This document shows positions 27,871 through 62,023 of a stretch of 64,000 nt of DNA, piece by piece. Every line of letters begins with the position of its first letter. Positions within the stretch are counted from its first letter, which is position 1. The notes beneath the pieces were generated by a model. It made no database searches. It was not told where the DNA came from and was given only the letters and a program-made list of their open reading frames with translations. Origin of the DNA: Candidatus Jacksonbacteria bacterium RIFOXYB2_FULL_44_15 (GTDB taxonomy: Bacteria > Patescibacteriota > Patescibacteriia > UBA9629); the NCBI GenBank assembly GCA_001818235.1, contig MHJY01000010.1:17609-81608 (forward strand), given 5' to 3'. A program made the translations under genes and the position numbers.

Positions 27871-29856
27871 TTAATCCACCGTCAGCCCAGTAGCCGGTGA
27901 CGCAGCCGGCAAGCTGGCAGGTGGATTTAAAGTATTGTTGACGCTACCGTCGCCGGTCGCTACATCAGGATTAAGCGTGCTGTTACCAGTATCAGGGCTT
28001 TTGCCGACCAAACAAACCGCCTGCCAAGGACGATAGTGAGAATAAAAAGTCTCTTCTTTTTTAGTGCCATCAGCATAAACCACCGCGTAATCAAACTGCG
28101 TATCAGCCCCGTTATGGGCACTTTCGGTGCATTTAGTAATTCCAGGCGCGATATCCGTAGTCTCAATAAATTTTTTAGCTGGCGGCTTAGTAATATTATA
28201 TATTTTAGGATCAGAAATAGTCACTTGCCGTCCGTCTTTAGTCCCCCAAAATTCAAAAAATACTTCATTGCCTTTGATGGTAGTCTGAATAAGAATATGC
28301 GTACTCATGTTATTTCGAAAACGGCAATCCGGATGAGGCGGGTAGATAGTGCAATCTGTTCCGGCTGGCTCATAATAAACTACCCGGTAGCTATGGCTCC
28401 GGCGCTCGGTAATTTCCAAACCACTCTGCAAGGCGCCGCGAAAAAGAGTAGTGCCAATTTGGCATAACCCGCCACCGTATTCAGGTATGGTTCTGTTGCC
28501 CTTAATCACCAGCTCAGGCAAATAGCCGTTTTGGCCGTCGATTGCCCCCAAAGCCGCGGCTAAAGAAAATTCTTCGCCCGGCGGAACTAATAAACCATTT
28601 AATGCCGCCGCGCCAACCGCGATGTTGTGTCGCCTGTTAGCCGGACTGCCGGCAAAATTTGATTTGCCGATACCGACAATTTCTTTAATGCCCAAATCAT
28701 TTATTGATTCTGTCGAATATTTTGGCAAAACTTTTTCGGTAATAATCTCAATTGGTTCGTTAACTAAACTTTCGTCGAAAAAAAATTTGTTAGTTGCCTC
28801 CAAAGTTTGGGCATAGGAGATCTGCCTGCCTTCGCTGCTCGGTTTAAACTCAGATACTTTGCCGGAAGAAGTTAACTGAAATCGGGCTTCTTGAACCGGG
28901 AGCTCGACTGCTGGAGCAATATGTTCCTGTAAATAAGCAATCAACCCGTCGTTAAACGCCAGCATCCCGTCTGAAATTGACAGCCAGTCTTTATATTGAT
29001 TTTTGTTTATTAATAATGTCTCGGTAGCTGTCGTCGCTTCGGTTGAATCTGTATATTTAAAAAAGATGTCTGACCGACTGATAAACAACTGTTCCATCTC
29101 GGCCTTTTTACTGGAAAGCTCGGCTACTGTAACTTTAGGCAAATCTTTTTTGGCTGTCAAAGTTACTACGGGCATTGCTATCTCGCTTAGGGCGTTGCGC
29201 GTTTGTGCGATCGCCGCATCATAATCCGGCATTATTCCAGACTCCTCGGGAATAATCATTATTTTTAAATTATTGTCAATCTGCAATTTGGCATCATGAG
29301 CCGACATTTCTTGATCCTTAAAATTTTCCTGCAACGTTGCCTTAAACTTATCGTCATACAGTGTATACTGTAATAAAATTTTCCTGGGATTACGCAATAA
29401 TTCAATTTTTGATTTAAAATCCGGCCAAAAATCTCCGGTTCGCCCAATTTCCATTATGTTTTCTAAGGTAGCCTCAGTATTGACGCTAACGAGTTCGTAG
29501 GTCAAATCCGGATCAGTCGTCGCGACGACTTGAGGCCAAACCGTCACCTGCTGATTTTTATACGTAAACAACATGCCGTCGCTCTCCAAACTTCGTTTAT
29601 AATTATTTATTAACTCCGCTAACTCGGCGCGCTTTAGACCGCTGATTTTGTTGCGGCCAAGCATGATTCCCGCGTAAACGCGGCCCTGATATTTAATCTC
29701 GTATCCCCAGACTACCATCAAAAAACTAAATGAAGTAAACCAAATAATTAAAAAAAATACGGCTAGATAACGCAGCCGCTTCTTCCGGTTAGCTGTCACG
29801 ACACCAATCTCTTTTCGTTCAAAATTGTGCGCCAAAAAATTATTCTTGCGGGACAT
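27871..29856 (-). CDS. VanW-family protein with N-terminal membrane anchor
   Basis: GGGLCQIGTTLFRGALQSGLEITERRSHSY VanW signature, with a long C-terminal extension. Confidence 0.75.
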   Translation of the reverse strand: MSRKNNFLAHNFERKEIGVVTANRKKRLRYLAVFFLIIWFTSFSFLMVVWGYEIKYQGRVYAGIMLGRNKISGLKRAELAELINNYKRSLESDGMLFTYKNQQVTVWPQVVATTDPDLTYELVSVNTEATLENIMEIGRTGDFWPDFKSKIELLRNPRKILLQYTLYDDKFKATLQENFKDQEMSAHDAKLQIDNNLKIMIIPEESGIMPDYDAAIAQTRNALSEIAMPVVTLTAKKDLPKVTVAELSSKKAEMEQLFISRSDIFFKYTDSTEATTATETLLINKNQYKDWLSISDGMLAFNDGLIAYLQEHIAPAVELPVQEARFQLTSSGKVSEFKPSSEGRQISYAQTLEATNKFFFDESLVNEPIEIITEKVLPKYSTESINDLGIKEIVGIGKSNFAGSPANRRHNIAVGAAALNGLLVPPGEEFSLAAALGAIDGQNGYLPELVIKGNRTIPEYGGGLCQIGTTLFRGALQSGLEITERRSHSYRVVYYEPAGTDCTIYPPHPDCRFRNNMSTHILIQTTIKGNEVFFEFWGTKDGRQVTISDPKIYNITKPPAKKFIETTDIAPGITKCTESAHNGADTQFDYAVVYADGTKKEETFYSHYRPWQAVCLVGKSPDTGNSTLNPDVATGDGSVNNTLNPPASLPAASPATGLTVD

Positions 29857-30067
29857 TGTTAAAAATCTCGTTTAATATTTTCTTGGCTAATACTTGCTGG
29901 TCTTGCGTCACTCCCTCTGCGTCTTTAATTTCGACAATAACAACATCACCTTCTTTTAACCCAGGCGGCAAATTCGCTGATTCCCAATGTAAAATTTGTC
30001 CGTTTTCTATAATGATCACTGCCTGCCCTCCCTCGATTCGGTCAATGACTGCTTTCTTAATGTACAT
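29840..30067 (-). CDS. DUF3006 domain protein
   Basis: VIDRIEGGQAVIIIENGQ...LPPGLKEGDVV pattern. Confidence 0.55.
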   Translation of the reverse strand: MYIKKAVIDRIEGGQAVIIIENGQILHWESANLPPGLKEGDVVIVEIKDAEGVTQDQQVLAKKILNEIFNNVPQE

Positions 30068-30073
30068 AAATCA

Positions 30074-30592
30074 TCAACTGCTTTGATCAGTTACTTTAAT
30101 GTGAATTTTCTGCACCTGTTTGGCTTTGGGCAACCGGATGGTTAAAATCCCCTTTTTAAATTCCGCGACGGCGGCATCAGCTTGAATCTCCTGCGGTAAA
30201 ATAATGGAGCGAGAAAAAGAGCCCCAATAACATTCTTGATAAAAATAATTTTGCCGCTGGATCTCCTCTTCTTGTTTGCGAGTGCCGCGAATCGTAATCA
30301 TGTCGTTACTGATAGAGATATCTAAATTCTCCGAGTCAACCCCAGCCACTGCCGACTTAATAACAATCTCATCATCTGTCTGATAAACATCAACTGATAA
30401 TTGGCCATCATAATTTTGTCCAGCCCACTCTGTCATATCTTCACCGGCGGCCCCTCCAGCCCTTATTTTTTTACTCATTTCTTGTTCTGATTGATTAGGA
30501 GACTCTTCTGTTTGCACGCCAATAGTTTCCGTCTCTGGTTCGCTCGACTTTTTAATTCCCGTAATTTTAGCAAAAAAAGATCGACTGATCAT
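30074..30592 (-). CDS. Hsp20/alpha-crystallin small heat-shock protein
   Basis: Alpha-crystallin domain (DVYQTDDEIVIKSAVAGVDSENLDISI...GILTIRLPKA). Confidence 0.85.
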   Translation of the reverse strand: MISRSFFAKITGIKKSSEPETETIGVQTEESPNQSEQEMSKKIRAGGAAGEDMTEWAGQNYDGQLSVDVYQTDDEIVIKSAVAGVDSENLDISISNDMITIRGTRKQEEEIQRQNYFYQECYWGSFSRSIILPQEIQADAAVAEFKKGILTIRLPKAKQVQKIHIKVTDQSS

Positions 30593-30710
30593 ATGGCCAA
30601 AAATTTTCGATTATCAATTTTTTAAAAAATCGAAATCAAAATGGTTATTCAGTGATTTGATATTAACAAAACTATTATATACTAAAATGTTTTTTTGGTC
30701 TACTCCCCGG

Positions 30711-30730
30711 ATGTCGCTCGCGAGCGACAT
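30711..30730. promoter_or_regulatory. Perfect 20-bp palindrome ATGTCGCTCGCGAGCGACAT about 120 bp upstream of hsp20
   Basis: Exact inverted repeat. It does not match CIRCE or HAIR consensus and may be an operator for an unknown regulator. Confidence 0.35.
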
Positions 30731-31417
30731 GGCCCATTGCAATTCATAAGCCAAATAATGATTCTAAAAAAAATAAGGGCACAACGGAAGCGCCCGGTTG
30801 AAAATTGTTTCACGGCGTCCAAATTGTGCCCTATGCTCTGATTTAGAGCACAGGGTACTACTTCTTCTACTCTTTTATAAGTAGCAAAAGTAATTTCCTT
30901 GAATTTGACTCTAAACCAGTTTATTCTTACCATTCCTAGGTGGACATTAAGCCGTTTTTTTATGCTTAAAGCCCCCAAACTAATTCTTCTTTTTTTATTT
31001 AATTTTTTTGTTTTTGTTTTGTCCTTTTTATTGATCCTCCTATGGAGCATAAGCTCCACTAAGAGGTTAGAGAATTATGGAACAGTTAAGAATCTAGATA
31101 CTTTAACAGTTTTATCTATCGCTAGATAATCCGACTGAACTCTTCGCTAAAGATAAATCTCCGCAAAGAGTTAATGTGGGCGTTAAAGCATCTAAACTCT
31201 CACTGTTCCTTACCTCGTAATATTTTCAAAGAACTTTCATATCTCTATTGGTTACATTATATCATTCTTAGTTAGTGCGGTCAATCGTCGAAGTTAAATA
31301 ATTGTGTTTCCATTTTATGCGTAATTAAAGCTAAAATTACTGTCAGTAAATAATAATTTTTTGACTCTGTTGATAACTATTTATTTGTTACTCACTATTT
31401 TTTCAAAATATATTAAT

Positions 31418-31437
31418 TTATCCACAATTTATCCACA
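31418..31437 (+). promoter_or_regulatory. Two perfect tandem DnaA boxes (TTATCCACA x2, 11-bp phasing) in an AT-rich gene-free region; candidate oriC
   Basis: Exact 9-mer consensus at 31418-31426 and 31429-31437. Further 7-8/9 boxes lie at 31549-31568. CTGTAGAC iteron-like repeats recur to the right, and an AT-rich stretch lies immediately to the left. Confidence 0.4.
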
Positions 31438-31439
31438 AT

Positions 31440-31871
31440 AAAACTAAAAAGCACCTACCAAAAGGTGCCCTTTAGTCTCCTCCCCGATAACTCGAGGAGG
31501 AGTAAGAGGTGATACTGCCCACAAATCTCTGTAGCACTGCAGTTTTTAAGTGGATAACTTATCTACAGTACTACGACTGGACCAAACTAATCTAGCGTTA
31601 AACACTAATTAGTAGCCCAGCCATAATCTGTAGACAAGAGAATTACCCAAAGGCAATCCTAAGACGAATCCTAGGAAACCTCTGCCTTTCGCCCATTTTG
31701 ATAATCGTAATTACCCAAATAGGCGAAAGGTTCTAAACGTTACCGTATAAGAAAGATAATCCCCATGCTTGTCGTGCCTACAGAGACATAAAGCCGAAAT
31801 TATCGGAAAATCTTCATATCTCTGTAGACCTCTTATATCTTAATTAACAAACAACTTACTTAATTTAAAGA
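31440..31871 (-). ncRNA. Candidate ~430-nt non-coding RNA on the minus strand (promoter to intrinsic terminator), class unknown
   Basis: Minus-strand TTGACA(31906-31901)-N17-TAAGAT(31883-31878) promoter. A hairpin gcacctaccaaaaggtgc at 31451-31468 is followed on the minus strand by TTTTTAGTTTT. No ORF lies between them. I could not match it to tmRNA, RNase P or 6S. Confidence 0.25.
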
Positions 31872-32008
31872 CCCAGTATCTTAGCACACAATAAAAAAAC
31901 TGTCAAGGGCCGCCTTTGCTTTCTGATTTCTACGGTGTTACAATAAAAAAAGCTTAGCACTGTCTACAAAATAATACGCTAATTAAATATCAGATATTTC
32001 ACTAATTT

Positions 32009-33019
32009 ATGAAAAAATCAGAAAATTTAAATACAGCCCTGTCGCCGGATTTAGAACCTGAAGTCGAAATTACTTTACGTCCACAAAATCTGACTGAATT
32101 TGTTGGTCAAAATCAGATCAAAAAAAATCTTGCAATTTCGATTCAAGCCGCACAATATCGAAACGACTCTCTCGAACATATATTGCTTTATGGCCCGGCT
32201 GGGCTGGGAAAAACTACCCTTGCCCATATTATCGCCAAGGAGACTGGCAACTACATTCATGCCACTTCTGGCCCGGCAATCGCGAGAGCCGGCGATCTGG
32301 CGGCCTTATTAACTAACCTCCAAGCCGGCGAAATACTTTTTATTGACGAAATCCATCGACTTAACAAAACAATCGAGGAGATTTTATATCCAGCCATGGA
32401 AGACTATAAACTTGACCTGATCGTCGGCAAAGGACCCTCAGCCCGCACTCTTAAATTAGAATTGCCCCGTTTTACCTTAATTGGCGCAACCACCCGTTTA
32501 AGTTTACTGTCATCGCCTTTGCGCGATCGTTTTGGTTTTATCCATCGCCTAAAATTTTATAAAGATGAACATATTAAAGAAATAATTAACCGTTCCGCCA
32601 ATATCTTAAATATTGTGATTGATGATGAGGCCGCTTCTACTCTGGCCGCGCGGTCGCGTAAGACGCCCCGCATCGCTAACCGCCTGCTCAAACGAGTGCG
32701 TGATTTTTGCCAAGTTAAAGGAGACGGACAGATATCACCTGATCTCACCAACCAAACCTTAGAATTACTGGAAATTGACGAACTCGGCTTGGATGATATT
32801 GATCGCCGAATTCTAGAAATTATTATCGAGAAATTTAACGGAGGCCCAGTCGGATTAAGCACGATCGCCGCCGCAATCGGTGAAGAAGAAGAAACAATCG
32901 CCGAAATTTACGAACCGTATTTGATGCAAATCGGCTTTCTCGCTCGCACGCCGCGGGGTCGCCAAGTTACCGAATCCGCTTACCAACATCTGCACCTTAC
33001 GCCGGTAAAACTTTTTTAG
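32009..33019 (+). CDS. ruvB: Holliday junction branch migration helicase RuvB
   Basis: [14 protein letters not shown] Walker A, a RuvB_N/AAA module, and a winged-helix C-terminus. Confidence 0.9.
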
Positions 33020-59708: not shown

Positions 59709-60433
59709 AGTTTATCCCATAACAATTTAAATTTTTGGCGCTCCATTTGGGCTAAATCCGAGCTTTGAATCACTACGCCGATTAATTCTTTTTCCGAGGA
59801 CAGGCAGGCGATTTTGTCCTGAAAAATAAACATTGAACTGGAGAAAAAATATTCTTGCGGCAGGTATTTGATTGTACGCAAAAACTTGGCTTCGTCTTGC
59901 TTTAATTTATTCGCACCCAGATCAGCGAAAACTAAAGCTGTGAATTTAATATTCTTTTCCATTCTCGCCGGAATGTAGTGGTTATAATCATATTCTGGAG
60001 TAACGATTTTGTAAATATCAACAATCGAGCCAAGGTATAGAATCTCGCTATTTTTGACCTCGAGCGTTTGCTCGACAATTGAAAGGCAGCCTTCTTTGCC
60101 CAGATAAAACCGAACTTCCGGCCGTTTTTCTTCTTTGCCTTTGATTAGCGCCGACAGCTGGGGCATAATTTGGAGTAACGCTTCTTGCCGTTCTTTTAAA
60201 AGCGACTGCAACCGCTCCGGCTCTTCGGCGATAAACTTTTTTGATTCTTTTGATTGATAATAACTTACGAGACCTTTCTGCATCAAAGACTCGAGGATTA
60301 CATAAACCGTGGTGCGTTTTATTTTTGATTTTTTGGCGATCTCCGGAATCTTGGCCGAGCCCAACTCCAAAGAAGCCAGATATACACGGGCTTCTTTTTC
60401 GGTTAAGCCAAGTTTTTGAAGAGTGGAGAGCAT
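59705..60433 (-). CDS. TrmB-family transcriptional regulator (paralog 4)
   Basis: EKEARVYLASLELGSAKIPEIAKKSKIKRTTVYVILESLMQKGLV plus a TrmB_C domain. Confidence 0.75.
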   Translation of the reverse strand: MLSTLQKLGLTEKEARVYLASLELGSAKIPEIAKKSKIKRTTVYVILESLMQKGLVSYYQSKESKKFIAEEPERLQSLLKERQEALLQIMPQLSALIKGKEEKRPEVRFYLGKEGCLSIVEQTLEVKNSEILYLGSIVDIYKIVTPEYDYNHYIPARMEKNIKFTALVFADLGANKLKQDEAKFLRTIKYLPQEYFFSSSMFIFQDKIACLSSEKELIGVVIQSSDLAQMERQKFKLLWDKL

Positions 60434-60472
60434 GGGTGGTTGGTTAGACTATGACATGATAGCCGATGGAAT

Positions 60473-60564
60473 TGTCATTCCGAGCGGACCCCGAGCAGGG
60501 GCGAGGGGGGAGTCGAGGAATCTCTCTGGATTAAGCAAGGGATCCCTCGGCAAGCTCGGGATGA
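60473..60564. repeat. Head-to-head pair of Family-A motif copies in the divergent intergenic region
   Basis: gtcattccgagcggaccccgagcaggggcgaggggggagtcgaggaatc (60473-60521, minus-oriented) and gatccctcggcaagctcgggatgac (60537-60564, plus-oriented). The second is the exact reverse complement of 2520-2544. Confidence 0.6.
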
Positions 60565-60691
60565 CAAATTGACGTTTTTTGCTTATATACAGACTGGCCA
60601 TTTTTTACAAATCTGTCGATAATTTTGTCAACTTGATTTTATTATATACTAAAGTAAAACAGCTGTCAAACTTTGCTATTTGCCAAAAGTA

Positions 60692-60720
60692 TTGACAAAT
60701 ATCTCAATCAATGTTATAAT
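60692..60720 (+). promoter_or_regulatory. Consensus sigma70 promoter TTGACA-N17-TATAAT
   Basis: Exact hexamers. An RBS aggag precedes the ATG at 60785. Confidence 0.5.
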
Positions 60721-60784
60721 GATTTTATTAATAATAAATGACATTGCTCTTTGAAAAAAATCTTATAAATATAGGAGAAAAATA

Positions 60785-62023
60785 ATGAGTAACGAATACA
60801 TCGTCAATATAGAGTTGCCCGGAATTCAGACAGAAATTAAAGAAGCTCGAAAAATATTTAGCGACTTCTACGAAAAATATTGTACTACGTTTGACCTGGC
60901 TGATGAAGCCAAAATCAAAATGGTGTACAAAGCCGCACAAATCATGGGCATTTTCGCAAGGGCAAAAGCAATTCGCCAACTCTTGTTTGGCCGCAACATA
61001 TCGCTGTATGGAGTGTGTTACTTAGGAACTAAATGCAATCAAAACTGCAAATTCTGTCCAATGGGGCAGGCCAACTGGAAAATGCACCTACATGGCAAAA
61101 CTTCAAGCGATAGGCTGATTACGCTATCGTTAGAAGAGGCGTCGGCTGATCTTGATGCCCTAGTTCAAATAGGACATCGCGAAATCTGCATTTTAGCCGG
61201 AGAAGCGATCGCTTGCGATCCCGGCAAAGTCGTCGAATACGCCCAACTCGCGGTCTATAAACCAGGCGTTCATGAAGTAATCCTGAATATGGGAGCGTAC
61301 ACGCAACGTACTTTCGAATTCATCAAAGAAACCATTGTGCTCCCAGCTGGAGTCAAACTCCAGCATCGCGTGTTTCAGGAGACATATGTCAAAACAGAGT
61401 ATGACTACTACATGGAGCGTGCCCCTCGCGAGCACGGTAGTAAAGCAGACTTTGACTTCCGCTACAATTCCCAAGTGGCTGCTCTCAAAGCTGGGTTCGA
61501 TGAAGTCGGTATCGGAGTCCTGTTTGGTCTAAGCCGCTATCCTTTAAAAGAAATAAAAGGTCTGCAACAGCACGCGGCTTATATCAAAAAGTATGGCGGA
61601 AAGTATCCTAAAAGATGCTGTCTGCCAATAGCTAACAATCCTGAACCGGATACAAATCCAGTTGATGTTAAATACCTAATCCCAGGTATGTCAACCGAAC
61701 AGATGATAACTGAGCTAATCTACGCTCTAGCCAGATTGGCCATGCCAACTGTTTCGACAGTCTCATCAGAGCGCGATAATCCAGGTACCCTGGAGCTTCT
61801 GGATCAATACGCGAACCACACCACCTTGTTTGTTCATCCGGCTCCAGGGGGGAACATTAAATCATTGGACGAACTCCATGGTGAAACATTCAGTCATGGC
61901 TACAAACCAGTAGCCCAAGCAGAAGTATTCCCACGCTACCCAAGGGAGGCGATCAAAAGCTGGCAGAAACGGGGATACAATATTCTGGGTTTTAACATTA
62001 CAAAGTATGACCTTTGCCCGTAA
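60785..62023 (+). CDS. Radical SAM enzyme, ThiH/HydG/CofGH/MqnCE-like branch
   Basis: FGRNISLYGVCYLGTKCNQNCKFCPMG (CxxxCxxC preceded by a conserved Gly/hydrophobic N-cap), with a TIM-barrel-like remainder. Confidence 0.7.
   Translation: MSNEYIVNIELPGIQTEIKEARKIFSDFYEKYCTTFDLADEAKIKMVYKAAQIMGIFARAKAIRQLLFGRNISLYGVCYLGTKCNQNCKFCPMGQANWKMHLHGKTSSDRLITLSLEEASADLDALVQIGHREICILAGEAIACDPGKVVEYAQLAVYKPGVHEVILNMGAYTQRTFEFIKETIVLPAGVKLQHRVFQETYVKTEYDYYMERAPREHGSKADFDFRYNSQVAALKAGFDEVGIGVLFGLSRYPLKEIKGLQQHAAYIKKYGGKYPKRCCLPIANNPEPDTNPVDVKYLIPGMSTEQMITELIYALARLAMPTVSTVSSERDNPGTLELLDQYANHTTLFVHPAPGGNIKSLDELHGETFSHGYKPVAQAEVFPRYPREAIKSWQKRGYNILGFNITKYDLCP

What the first reader, a model, noticed from the sequence alone, without database searches (positions are those of the whole stretch)
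31440..31871. Promoter-to-terminator bounded approximately 430-nt transcript on the minus strand with no ORF: candidate novel ncRNA
On the minus strand a near-consensus promoter (TTGACA-N17-TAAGAT, plus coordinates 31906-31878) is followed about 430 nt later by a GC hairpin (gcacctaccaaaaggtgc at 31451-31468) and a T-rich run. The interval has stops in all frames but several internal hairpins. I could not find tmRNA (no tag-ORF/CCA end), RNase P (no GGAAAGUCCGG or ACAGAACCCGGCU P4 strands) or 6S hallmarks. It overlaps the iteron-like repeats, so it could also be an origin-associated transcript.
Basis: seen in the sequence. Interest (0 to 1): 0.55.

Follow-up and report, generated by a model that had tools for sequence, protein, structure and literature searches.

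The report
New conserved structured RNA in CPR bacteria
The 430-base stretch is a real, independently transcribed, highly folded non-coding RNA gene: an enlarged version of a previously uncatalogued RNA found once per genome in well over a hundred species of ultra-small "CPR" bacteria, whose job is still unknown.

Summary
On the minus strand, an extended-minus-10 promoter (31906-31878) and a hairpin+U terminator (31476-31440) bracket 432 nt with no ORF. These fold far better than shuffles (z = -13.8) and much better than the opposite strand.

No Rfam 15 family matches, even at E<=10, and ARAGORN finds no tmRNA.

The RNA is conserved. Its core is helix P1, an invariant 10-11-nt bulge ACGACAAGCAU, and a G.U-rich helix P2 (GGGGRUU/AAUYUUCUU). 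This core recurs once per assembly in at least 120 Patescibacteria genomes (Falkow-, Komeili-, Kerfeld-, Uhr-, Magasanik- and Jacksonbacteria). P1 and P2 show heavy compensatory covariation. A near-perfect TTGACA-17-TGnTAnnnT promoter lies upstream, and the RNA supplies its own terminator.

Most members are 130-215-nt bulged rods. The window copy is an expanded form with apical insertions and a 3' domain, shared with six relatives. A covariance model built from short members hits the window once (57.8 bits, E about 4e-13).

The "iteron-like" repeats are copies of the P1 strands, and GC skew gives no sign of an origin.

Function is unknown. It is most likely a trans-acting RNP scaffold that presents the bulge; a 6S-like role is only a speculative model.

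The parts
31878..31906 (-). Promoter: -35 TTGACA (31906-31901), 17-nt spacer, extended -10 TGcTAAGAT (31886-31878)
   Evidence: scan; coordinates. The same TTGACA-17-TGnTAnnnT arrangement precedes the RNA in most family members: 88 of 113 upstream regions reach a promoter score of 10 or more, against 7 of 114 reverse-complement controls.
31440..31871 (-). Predicted transcript, about 432 nt. The TSS (about 31871) is inferred from the -10 position; the 3' end is inferred from the terminator.
31776..31830 (-). 5' leader hairpin, with arms at 31830-31812 and 31793-31776. Its 3' arm contains the P1 5' strand, so it competes with the family's P1.
   Evidence: MFE fold. Consensus fold of the 7 expanded members, with compensatory changes in the upper part. 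Enforcing P1 costs 12.3 kcal/mol.
31607..31804 (-). Match to the family covariance model R1, full length (positions 1-131)
   Evidence: 57.8 bits, E = 4.4e-13; the only hit in the 64-kb window. Seen again.
31776..31784 (-). P1 5' strand, UCUGUAGGC
31765..31775 (-). Invariant bulge ACGACAAGCAU, the family signature
   Evidence: Invariant in the 61-sequence alignment A3 and in the 101 model hits, including the diverged second copy in L088.
31755..31764 (-). P2 5' strand, GGGGAUUAUC
   Evidence: It starts with conserved G.U, G-C, G.U, G.U pairs.
31648..31754 (-). Lineage-specific apical insertion. It forms three hairpins (31748-31733, 31730-31685, 31684-31648) and replaces the simple apical hairpin of short members.
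   Evidence: The block GCAGAGGUUUCCnAGGAnnCGUCUUnGGAUUGCCUUUGG is nearly invariant among the expanded members.
31627..31647 (-). P2 3' strand GGUAAUUCUC (31647-31638), two unpaired U (31637-31636), and P1 3' strand GUCUACAGA (31635-31627)
31503..31626 (-). 3' domain found only in the expanded subfamily: a variable, covarying hairpin (31622-31575), CUGUAGAU (31574-31561), and an invariant block ACAGAGAUUUGUGGGCAGUAUCACCUCU (31535-31503)
31477..31502 (-). Hairpin CUCCUCCUCGAGUUAUCGGGGAGGAG. A hairpin of different sequence occupies this position in relatives.
   Evidence: (I19).
31440..31476 (-). Intrinsic terminator: 14-bp stem around GCACCUUUUGGUAGGUGC, followed by a U-run
   Evidence: A matching hairpin plus U-run is visible in L003, L005 and L065.

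Best explanation
The interval is a stand-alone gene for a stable, structured, trans-acting RNA. It is the expanded Jacksonbacteria form of an uncatalogued RNA family that occurs once per genome across a large Patescibacteria (CPR) clade. The named members are Falkow-, Komeili-, Kerfeld-, Uhr-, Magasanik- and Jacksonbacteria and BM507; from memory these are the GTDB class ABY1.

Shown:
- It has a strong sigma-70-type promoter and its own terminator.
- The rod-like fold has a covarying closing helix P1.
- An invariant 10-11-nt single-stranded bulge, ACGACAAGCAU, sits on the 5' strand.
- Helix P2 begins with conserved G.U/G-C/G.U/G.U pairs.
- The apex varies freely in sequence and length, from a short hairpin to insertions of tens to about a hundred nt confirmed by the model, with apparently longer ones in a few loci.

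Inferred:
- The RNA works by presenting the bulge, clamped between P1 and the G.U-rich start of P2, as the recognition site for a conserved cellular partner (protein or RNA). It would be an RNP scaffold or decoy.
- The apex, the 5' leader and the 3' domain of the window copy are lineage-specific elaborations.
- Of the concrete models, 6S-like capture of RNA polymerase fits the architecture best: two helices of about 25-30 bp flank a bubble that opens easily, and the bulge could act as template. That step is speculative.
For: Transcription unit and fold:
- Promoter, terminator, no ORF, z = -13.8, and a strand-specific fold.

Conservation:
- The RNA is found next to ruvB in relatives whose RuvB is 73-76% identical.
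- Minimal 130-nt versions occur in other Jacksonbacteria and in L008, with a fully compensated P1.
My own estimate of the chance expectation is about 17. Each contig comes from a different assembly, and nearly all are CPR.

Structure in the family:
- 96.3% of cells are paired.
- 179 cells have a change on both sides, against 55.5 +/- 5.7 in shuffles.
- The covariation score is 0.50, against 0.17 for shuffles and 0.05-0.14 for slid controls.
- Six of the 8 P1 pairs show compensatory changes.
- In the second L088 copy, one P2 pair changes from G-C to A-U.

Membership of the window copy:
- The covariance model built without the window hits it at 57.8 bits, E = 4e-13.

Promoters in the family:
- Most members have TTGACA-17-TGnTAnnnT upstream: 88 of 113 score 10 or more, against 7 of 114 controls.
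- Predicted transcripts of 128-216 nt end in their own stem plus U-run.

Stand-alone, not a leader:
- The next gene downstream is convergent (vanW) in most loci.

Not a known family:
-.
Against: - There is no expression data, so the promoter, the TSS and the 3' end are predictions.
- The partner and the function are unknown, and nothing here tests binding.
- In the window copy the MFE fold does not form the family's P1. The P1 5' strand pairs with a leader copy of the P1 3' strand, and enforcing P1 costs 12.3 kcal/mol. The expanded form may therefore fold differently or switch.
- The family was collected with an exact 19-mer, so the invariance of the bulge is partly built in. The diverged L088 copy keeps the bulge but was found by a model that also favours it.
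- The 6S-like idea has no support from the Rfam 6S models. The 3' strand opposite the bulge has only 0-2 unpaired bases, unlike the two-sided bubble of 6S.
Confidence: 0.62

Rival explanations
1. It is a functional analogue of 6S RNA. The rod binds the sigma-70 RNA polymerase holoenzyme as an open-promoter mimic. The G.U-rich start of P2 melts, and the bulge serves as template for a short product RNA (5'-AUGCUUGUCGUG...) whose synthesis unzips P1 and releases the enzyme.
For: - Single copy, a very strong promoter, and a 130-215-nt rod with a central discontinuity flanked by helices of about 25-30 bp.
- The conserved weak G.U pairs sit next to the bulge.
- No canonical 6S hit appeared in about 0.5 Mb of DNA from these genomes. 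That sample is heavily biased to one region.
Against: - No similarity to the Rfam 6S models, even at E<=10.
- The bubble is one-sided: 10-11 nt against 0-2 nt.
- From my own knowledge, 6S RNAs are not normally invariant in sequence across such a wide clade, and small-genome bacteria often lack 6S.
- A -10-like reading of the 3' strand (UAAUYU) holds for only part of the family.
Confidence: 0.18
2. It acts on or mimics the ribosome. The bulge and its flanking strands resemble the 3' strand of 16S rRNA helix 34 (ACGUCAAAUCAGCAUGG-UUCUUACG) and are 11/12 complementary to the helix 34 5' strand (CAUGGUUGUCGU). The RNA could therefore pair with immature or idle 30S subunits, or titrate a factor that binds helix 34.
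For: - Complementarity and same-sense resemblance to the 16S of a family member, L048.
- Only rRNA-like partners are as invariant as the bulge (inference).
- rRNA genes lie within a few kb in about 9 loci.
Against: - The match is not statistically distinguishable from chance. 13 of 150 shuffled 12-mers and 49 of 150 shuffled 16-mers find an equally stable duplex somewhere in the rRNAs.
- The longest Watson-Crick run, 7 nt, is matched by 171 of 200 shuffles.
- The resemblance needs a 4-nt deletion and a hairpin insertion, and it was noticed after the fact.
Confidence: 0.08
3. It is mainly a cis element rather than a trans-acting RNA. It could be an elaborate bidirectional terminator or 3' element of the convergent hsp20-DUF3006-vanW operon. 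In the window it could instead be a leader of the downstream RNA2/hsp20 unit.
For: - vanW ends convergently right next to the RNA in 73 of about 115 loci.
- In short members the outer stem is flanked by an A-run and a U-run, so it could terminate both strands.
- In the window the RNA is followed, on the same strand, by RNA2 and hsp20.
Against: - A terminator needs no conserved strong promoter, invariant bulge or conserved G.U pairs, which would be A.C mismatches on the vanW strand.
- The window's same-strand arrangement comes from a local inversion and is not seen in relatives.
- The RNA has its own terminator before RNA2.
Confidence: 0.07
4. It is a DNA-level feature, such as a replication origin or iteron region, or degenerate repeat DNA, and not an RNA gene.
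For: - Repeated CTACAGAGA-type motifs lie within the interval.
- Two perfect tandem DnaA boxes lie just outside it at 31418-31437.
- DnaA-box-like sites are enriched around the RNA in other loci.
Against: - GC skew stays negative across the region. Its cumulative minimum lies near 60-62 kb.
- The repeats are alternately complementary and form helices that use G.U pairs on one strand only.
- Compensatory changes preserve pairing, not sequence.
- No dnaA or dnaN gene was seen among the commonest neighbour clusters.
Confidence: 0.03

Closest known systems
6S RNA (ssrS; Rfam RF00013 and relatives)
   Same: Single-copy, strongly transcribed, rod-shaped RNA of about 130-215 nt. Two long imperfect helices are separated by an unpaired region in the middle. 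It stands alone with its own terminator.
   Different: - No covariance-model similarity.
- The unpaired region is a one-sided 10-11-nt bulge, not a two-sided bubble.
- The bulge sequence is invariant across a class-level clade.
- No evidence of polymerase binding.
Small bacterial SRP RNA (4.5S; RF00169)
   Same: A hairpin of about 110-130 nt made by pairing of the 5' and 3' ends, with conserved internal irregularities, single copy and a strong promoter.
   Different: - In SRP RNA the conserved elements sit at the apex: a GNRA tetraloop plus symmetric and asymmetric loops that bind Ffh (my own knowledge).
- Here the apex is the most variable part and tolerates sizeable insertions, while the conserved site lies near the base.
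- No Rfam match.
Taxon-restricted orphan sRNA motifs (for example Flavo-1, Chlorobi-1, Bacteroidales-1 from Weinberg et al. 2010, PMC2864571; motif names recalled from memory)
   Same: A structured, stand-alone RNA found by comparative analysis, restricted to one bacterial lineage, supported by covariation, of unknown function.
   Different: It has a different sequence and structure and is absent from Rfam 15. It comes from CPR/Patescibacteria. It has an unusually invariant bulge and a subfamily expanded to about 430 nt.
Bacterial Y RNAs (Rsr/Ro60-associated)
   Same: The conserved protein-binding site would be a bulged helix formed by the two ends of the RNA, with a variable distal module.
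   Different: No sequence or model similarity and no tRNA-like module. Whether these genomes encode Ro60 was not examined.

Membership tests
New Patescibacteria 'bulged-rod' RNA family (defined here; model R1) | Closing helix P1 of at least 8 bp ending in a C-G pair | tested here: met
   Window strands 31784-31776 and 31635-31627 form 9 pairs. The family-wide helix covaries. In the window it competes with a leader hairpin.
New Patescibacteria 'bulged-rod' RNA family (defined here; model R1) | Invariant 5'-strand bulge ACGAC(A/G)AGCAU, followed by P2 GGGGRUU.../...AAUYUUCUU with conserved G.U pairs | tested here: met
   Window 31775-31755 and 31647-31636. Model hit of 57.8 bits, E = 4.4e-13, full length.
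New Patescibacteria 'bulged-rod' RNA family (defined here; model R1) | Own strong promoter (TTGACA-17-TGnTAnnnT) and intrinsic terminator, single copy | tested here: met
   The window has one copy.
6S RNA | Match to the Rfam 6S covariance models | tested here: not met
   No hit at E<=10 on the window region or on a short member.
6S RNA | Large two-sided central bubble between a closing stem and an internal stem | tested here: inconclusive
   Two long stems are present, but the unpaired region is one-sided (10-11 nt against 0-2 nt). The adjacent G.U pairs might open.
6S RNA | Binds sigma-70 holoenzyme and templates product RNA | not testable with these tools
   Needs biochemistry.
SRP RNA | Apical GNRA tetraloop with the conserved symmetric and asymmetric loops of helix 8; Rfam match | tested here: not met
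   Apical loops vary (UUCG, CUCC, UUGA...) and accept insertions. No Rfam hit.
tmRNA | tRNA-like domain, tag reading frame, CCA end | tested here: not met
   ARAGORN finds only two tRNAs elsewhere in the window. No Rfam hit.
RNase P RNA | Conserved P4 strands and core; Rfam match | tested here: not met
   No Rfam hit at E<=10. The family core is only about 90 nt.
Replication origin / iteron region | GC-skew switch and a DnaA-box cluster at the site | tested here: not met
   Skew is negative throughout 1-60 kb. Only two perfect boxes are present, and they lie outside the transcript.
Riboswitch or cis-regulatory leader | Lies upstream of a regulated gene on the same strand | tested here: not met
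   Across the family the next downstream gene is convergent. The window's same-strand arrangement is a local inversion.

The most novel reading that the evidence does not exclude
This is the founding example of a new class of housekeeping RNA in CPR bacteria. It would be a core, highly expressed RNP component whose invariant bulge engages a central machine (RNA polymerase, or the 30S subunit at helix 34). The expanded Jacksonbacteria form may switch between alternative pairings of its repeated P1 strands.
Probability: 0.45. Interest if true: 0.85.

Novelty: categorically new. Interest (0 to 1): 0.72.

Why it matters
CPR/Patescibacteria are a very large, almost uncultured branch of bacteria with tiny genomes and many missing functions, and very little is known about their non-coding RNAs.

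An RNA kept in single copy behind one of the strongest possible promoters, in more than a hundred species, with an invariant bulge, is likely to matter to the cell. It matches none of the 4227 Rfam families.

It also gives a concrete, testable object: a 90-nt core for pull-downs, structure probing and metatranscriptome quantification. It could additionally serve as a marker for this clade.

The 430-nt expanded form shows how such an RNA acquires extra domains.

Tried and rejected
- Known RNA families: the Rfam gathering scan of the window, E<=10 scans of the region and of a short member, and gathering scans of 54 family loci found only tRNA, rRNA, 5S and group I introns. ARAGORN found no tmRNA.
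- RNA1 and RNA2 as paralogues: rejected, because only an 11-nt shared word was found.
- SRP RNA: rejected, because the apex is variable and carries no helix-8 motif. A crude regex for that motif across all loci gave nothing convincing.
- Origin of replication: rejected on GC skew.
- Phage-borne element: the two viral-contig hits lie inside ORFs and do not match the model beyond the 19-mer, so they are chance matches.
- Antisense target of the bulge within the window: matches are at chance level.
- Pairing of the bulge with 16S 50-61 (9/11) or with helix 34 (11/12): not better than shuffles, so kept only as a lead.
- Literature: six full-text searches found no description of this RNA. The library is incomplete.
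- Apex: I did not obtain a reliable consensus for the apical helices, because the MAFFT and model alignments there are sequence-driven.

Full report
**1. The observation**

The window belongs to a Candidatus Jacksonbacteria (CPR/Patescibacteria) genome. Its RuvB protein is found identically on GCA_001000955.1 contig LCII01000003.1.

The finding lies in a 1416-bp gap between hsp20 (30074-30592, minus) and ruvB (32009-33019, plus). Public annotations call no gene in this gap.

On the minus strand:
- The promoter TTGACA-17-TAAGAT with an upstream TG is at 31906-31878.
- The hairpin GCACCUUUUGGUAGGUGC followed by UUUUUAGUUUU is at 31468-31440.
- No ORF of 30 aa or more lies between them.

The 432-nt interval folds to -190.9 kcal/mol, against -109.3 +/- 5.9 for shuffles (z = -13.8). 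The plus strand folds to only -116.8. This asymmetry reflects many G.U pairs on the minus strand. ARAGORN and Rfam find nothing here, even at E<=10.

**2. Conservation in close relatives**

RuvB homologues at 73-76% identity led to contigs L003, L004 and L005-7. In each, a homologue of the RNA sits on the opposite strand immediately upstream of ruvB (nhmmer E from 1e-47 to 1e-26).

Three blocks are nearly invariant:
- CUCUGUAGACACGACAAGCAUGGGG
- GCAGAGGUUUCCnAGGAnnCGUCUUnGGAUUGCCUUUGGAUAAUUCUCUUGUCUACAGA
- GAGAUUUGUGGGCAGUAUCA

The hairpins between these blocks differ in sequence but keep their pairing.

Two more distant genomes carry much shorter versions, L010/L011 (other Jacksonbacteria) and L008. 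They reveal the core:
- a closing helix P1;
- the bulge ACGAC(A/G)AGCAU;
- helix P2, GGGGAUU.../...AAUUYUCUU;
- a simple apical hairpin.

P1 is fully compensated between genomes: UCUGUAGGC/GUCUACAGA in the window, UCUCUAGAC/GUCUAGAGA in L010, and GGACAGGC/GCCUGUCC in L008.

**3. A large family**

My own estimate of the chance expectation is about 17. Every contig comes from a different assembly.

Named sources are Falkow-, Komeili-, Kerfeld-, Uhr-, Magasanik- and Jacksonbacteria, "Parcubacteria" and BM507. From memory these are orders of the GTDB class ABY1. Many contigs labelled "uncultured Gammaproteobacteria", and one labelled Zixiibacteriota, carry the same RNA. Most family loci also share the same neighbouring genes, so these labels are probably wrong.

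In 61 short members (alignment A3):
- P1 and P2 are 96.3% paired.
- 179 cells have changes on both sides, against 55.5 +/- 5.7 after shuffling.
- The covariation score is 0.50, against 0.17 for shuffles and 0.05-0.14 for slid controls.
- Six of 8 P1 pairs take three to five different standard pair types.

P2 begins with conserved G.U, G-C, G.U, G.U pairs. The second of these changes to A-U in a diverged second copy in L088.

A covariance model built from these short members, without the window, hits the window once at 31804-31607. The hit is full length, 57.8 bits, E about 4e-13. The window RNA is therefore a member.

**4. An independent, strongly expressed gene**

In 88 of 113 members the 130 nt upstream contain a promoter scoring at least 10 of 12. 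It is almost always a perfect TTGACA, a 17-nt spacer and TGnTAnnnT. Only 7 of 114 reverse-complement controls score as high.

Predicted transcripts of typical members are 128-216 nt. They fold into long imperfect rods, and the outer stem plus U-run is the terminator.

The gene downstream is usually convergent. vanW is next to the RNA in 73 of about 115 loci, with hsp20 behind it in 51. ruvB is divergent upstream in 19. The RNA is therefore not a 5' leader.

The ancestral order is hsp20-DUF3006-vanW, then the RNA in the opposite direction, then ruvB. In the window the hsp20-DUF3006-vanW block is inverted. That inversion is why the RNA is followed here by a second structured unit and by hsp20.

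**5. Anatomy of the window copy** (coordinates)

- Promoter: 31906-31878.
- 5' leader hairpin: 31830-31776.
- P1 5' strand: 31784-31776.
- Bulge: 31775-31765.
- P2 5' strand: 31764-31755.
- Apical insertion of three hairpins: 31754-31648.
- P2 3' strand: 31647-31638.
- Two unpaired U, then P1 3' strand: 31635-31627.
- 3' domain: 31626-31503.
- Hairpin: 31502-31477.
- Terminator: 31476-31440.

The expanded architecture is shared by L003, L004, L005, L065, L098 and L116.

The "iteron-like" repeats are extra copies of the two P1 strands, in this order along the RNA:
- GUCUnnAGAG in the leader;
- CUCUGUAGAC;
- GUCUACAGAU;
- CUGUAGAU;
- CUACAGAGAU.

Because these copies alternate in complementarity, several pairings are possible. 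In the window's MFE fold the P1 5' strand pairs with the leader copy, and enforcing the family P1 costs 12.3 kcal/mol. The bulge, P2 and the apical hairpins are the same in both folds. Whether this reflects a switch is unknown.

**6. What it is not**

- Not tmRNA, RNase P RNA, SRP RNA or 6S by model.
- Not SRP by architecture. The apex is the most variable part and accepts insertions, whereas SRP RNA is conserved at the apex.
- Not an origin. GC skew is negative throughout and reaches its cumulative minimum near 60-62 kb.
- Not phage-borne. Both viral hits are chance 19-mers inside ORFs.
- Six literature searches found no description.

**7. How it probably works**

Shown: it is a conserved, single-copy RNA with its own transcription signals. 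Its only sequence-invariant parts are a one-sided bulge and the G.U-rich helix next to it.

Inferred: these parts form the recognition site for a conserved partner, and the rest is scaffold. I commit to a trans-acting RNP scaffold or decoy as the general mechanism (0.62).

Among specific models:
- A 6S-like polymerase trap fits the overall shape but fails the model test and the two-sided-bubble criterion (0.18).
- A ribosome-directed role is suggested by the resemblance of the conserved strands to the 16S helix 34 3' strand, and by 11/12 complementarity to its 5' strand. Equally good duplexes arise with 13 of 150 shuffled 12-mers and 49 of 150 shuffled 16-mers, so this is only a lead (0.08).
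- A purely cis role as a terminator or 3' element of vanW (0.07) does not explain the promoter, the bulge or the strand-specific G.U pairs. A DNA-level role (0.03) does not explain them either.

**8. Novelty and verdict**

The RNA matches no curated family and appears to define a new one. I rate it categorically new at the family level.

Two caveats apply. Its function may turn out to be analogous to a known RNA, and the literature library is incomplete.

Interest is 0.72.

Noticed in passing
window 30765-31284 (minus strand): There is a second promoter-to-terminator structured unit ('RNA2') just downstream, on the same strand. Its promoter is TTGACC-17-TATAAT with TG (31284-31256) and its terminator is at 30795-30777. 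It folds to MFE -160.7 kcal/mol, z = -10.8, with no Rfam hit. Homologues lie upstream of hsp20, on the same strand, in L003, L004 and L065, with some compensatory changes. It could be a long hsp20 leader or a separate ncRNA. The 119-aa ORF at 30700-31059 that overlaps it is probably spurious.
   Followed up: partly
window 31418-31437 (plus-strand TTATCCACA x2); family loci L032, L046, L054, L063 and others: Two perfect tandem DnaA boxes sit between the RNA's terminator and RNA2. Across the family, DnaA-box-like sites are about 6-fold enriched in the 200 nt upstream of the core. In about 30 Falkowbacteria-type loci, TGTGGATAA sits 14-26 nt upstream of the -35 in a fixed orientation, which suggests control by DnaA.
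   Followed up: partly
window 27871-30592 compared with L003, L004, L008: The hsp20-DUF3006-vanW block is inverted in the window relative to relatives, where it reads towards the RNA and ruvB.
   Followed up: partly
window about 60000-62000: Cumulative GC skew reaches its minimum here, and three near-consensus DnaA boxes lie at 60614, 62158 and 62662. This may be the replication origin or terminus region.
   Followed up: no
L088 2426-2553 (minus): The BM507 genome carries a second, diverged copy of the RNA (71.7 bits) about 1.9 kb from the first. It is the only locus with two copies.
   Followed up: partly
L048 16S positions about 1021-1036 and 1146-1170; window 31765-31776: The conserved strands of the RNA resemble the 3' strand of 16S helix 34 and are 11/12 complementary to its 5' strand. 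The match is not significant against shuffles.
   Followed up: yes
L018-L131, record titles: Dozens of MAG contigs titled 'uncultured Gammaproteobacteria bacterium', and one titled Zixiibacteriota (L103), carry this CPR-specific RNA. The labels look like placeholder names or mis-binning.
   Followed up: no
L019 2085-2298 and 3245-3551: Two group I introns lie inside the 23S rRNA gene of a family member. rRNA genes lie within a few kb of the new RNA in about 9 loci.
   Followed up: no
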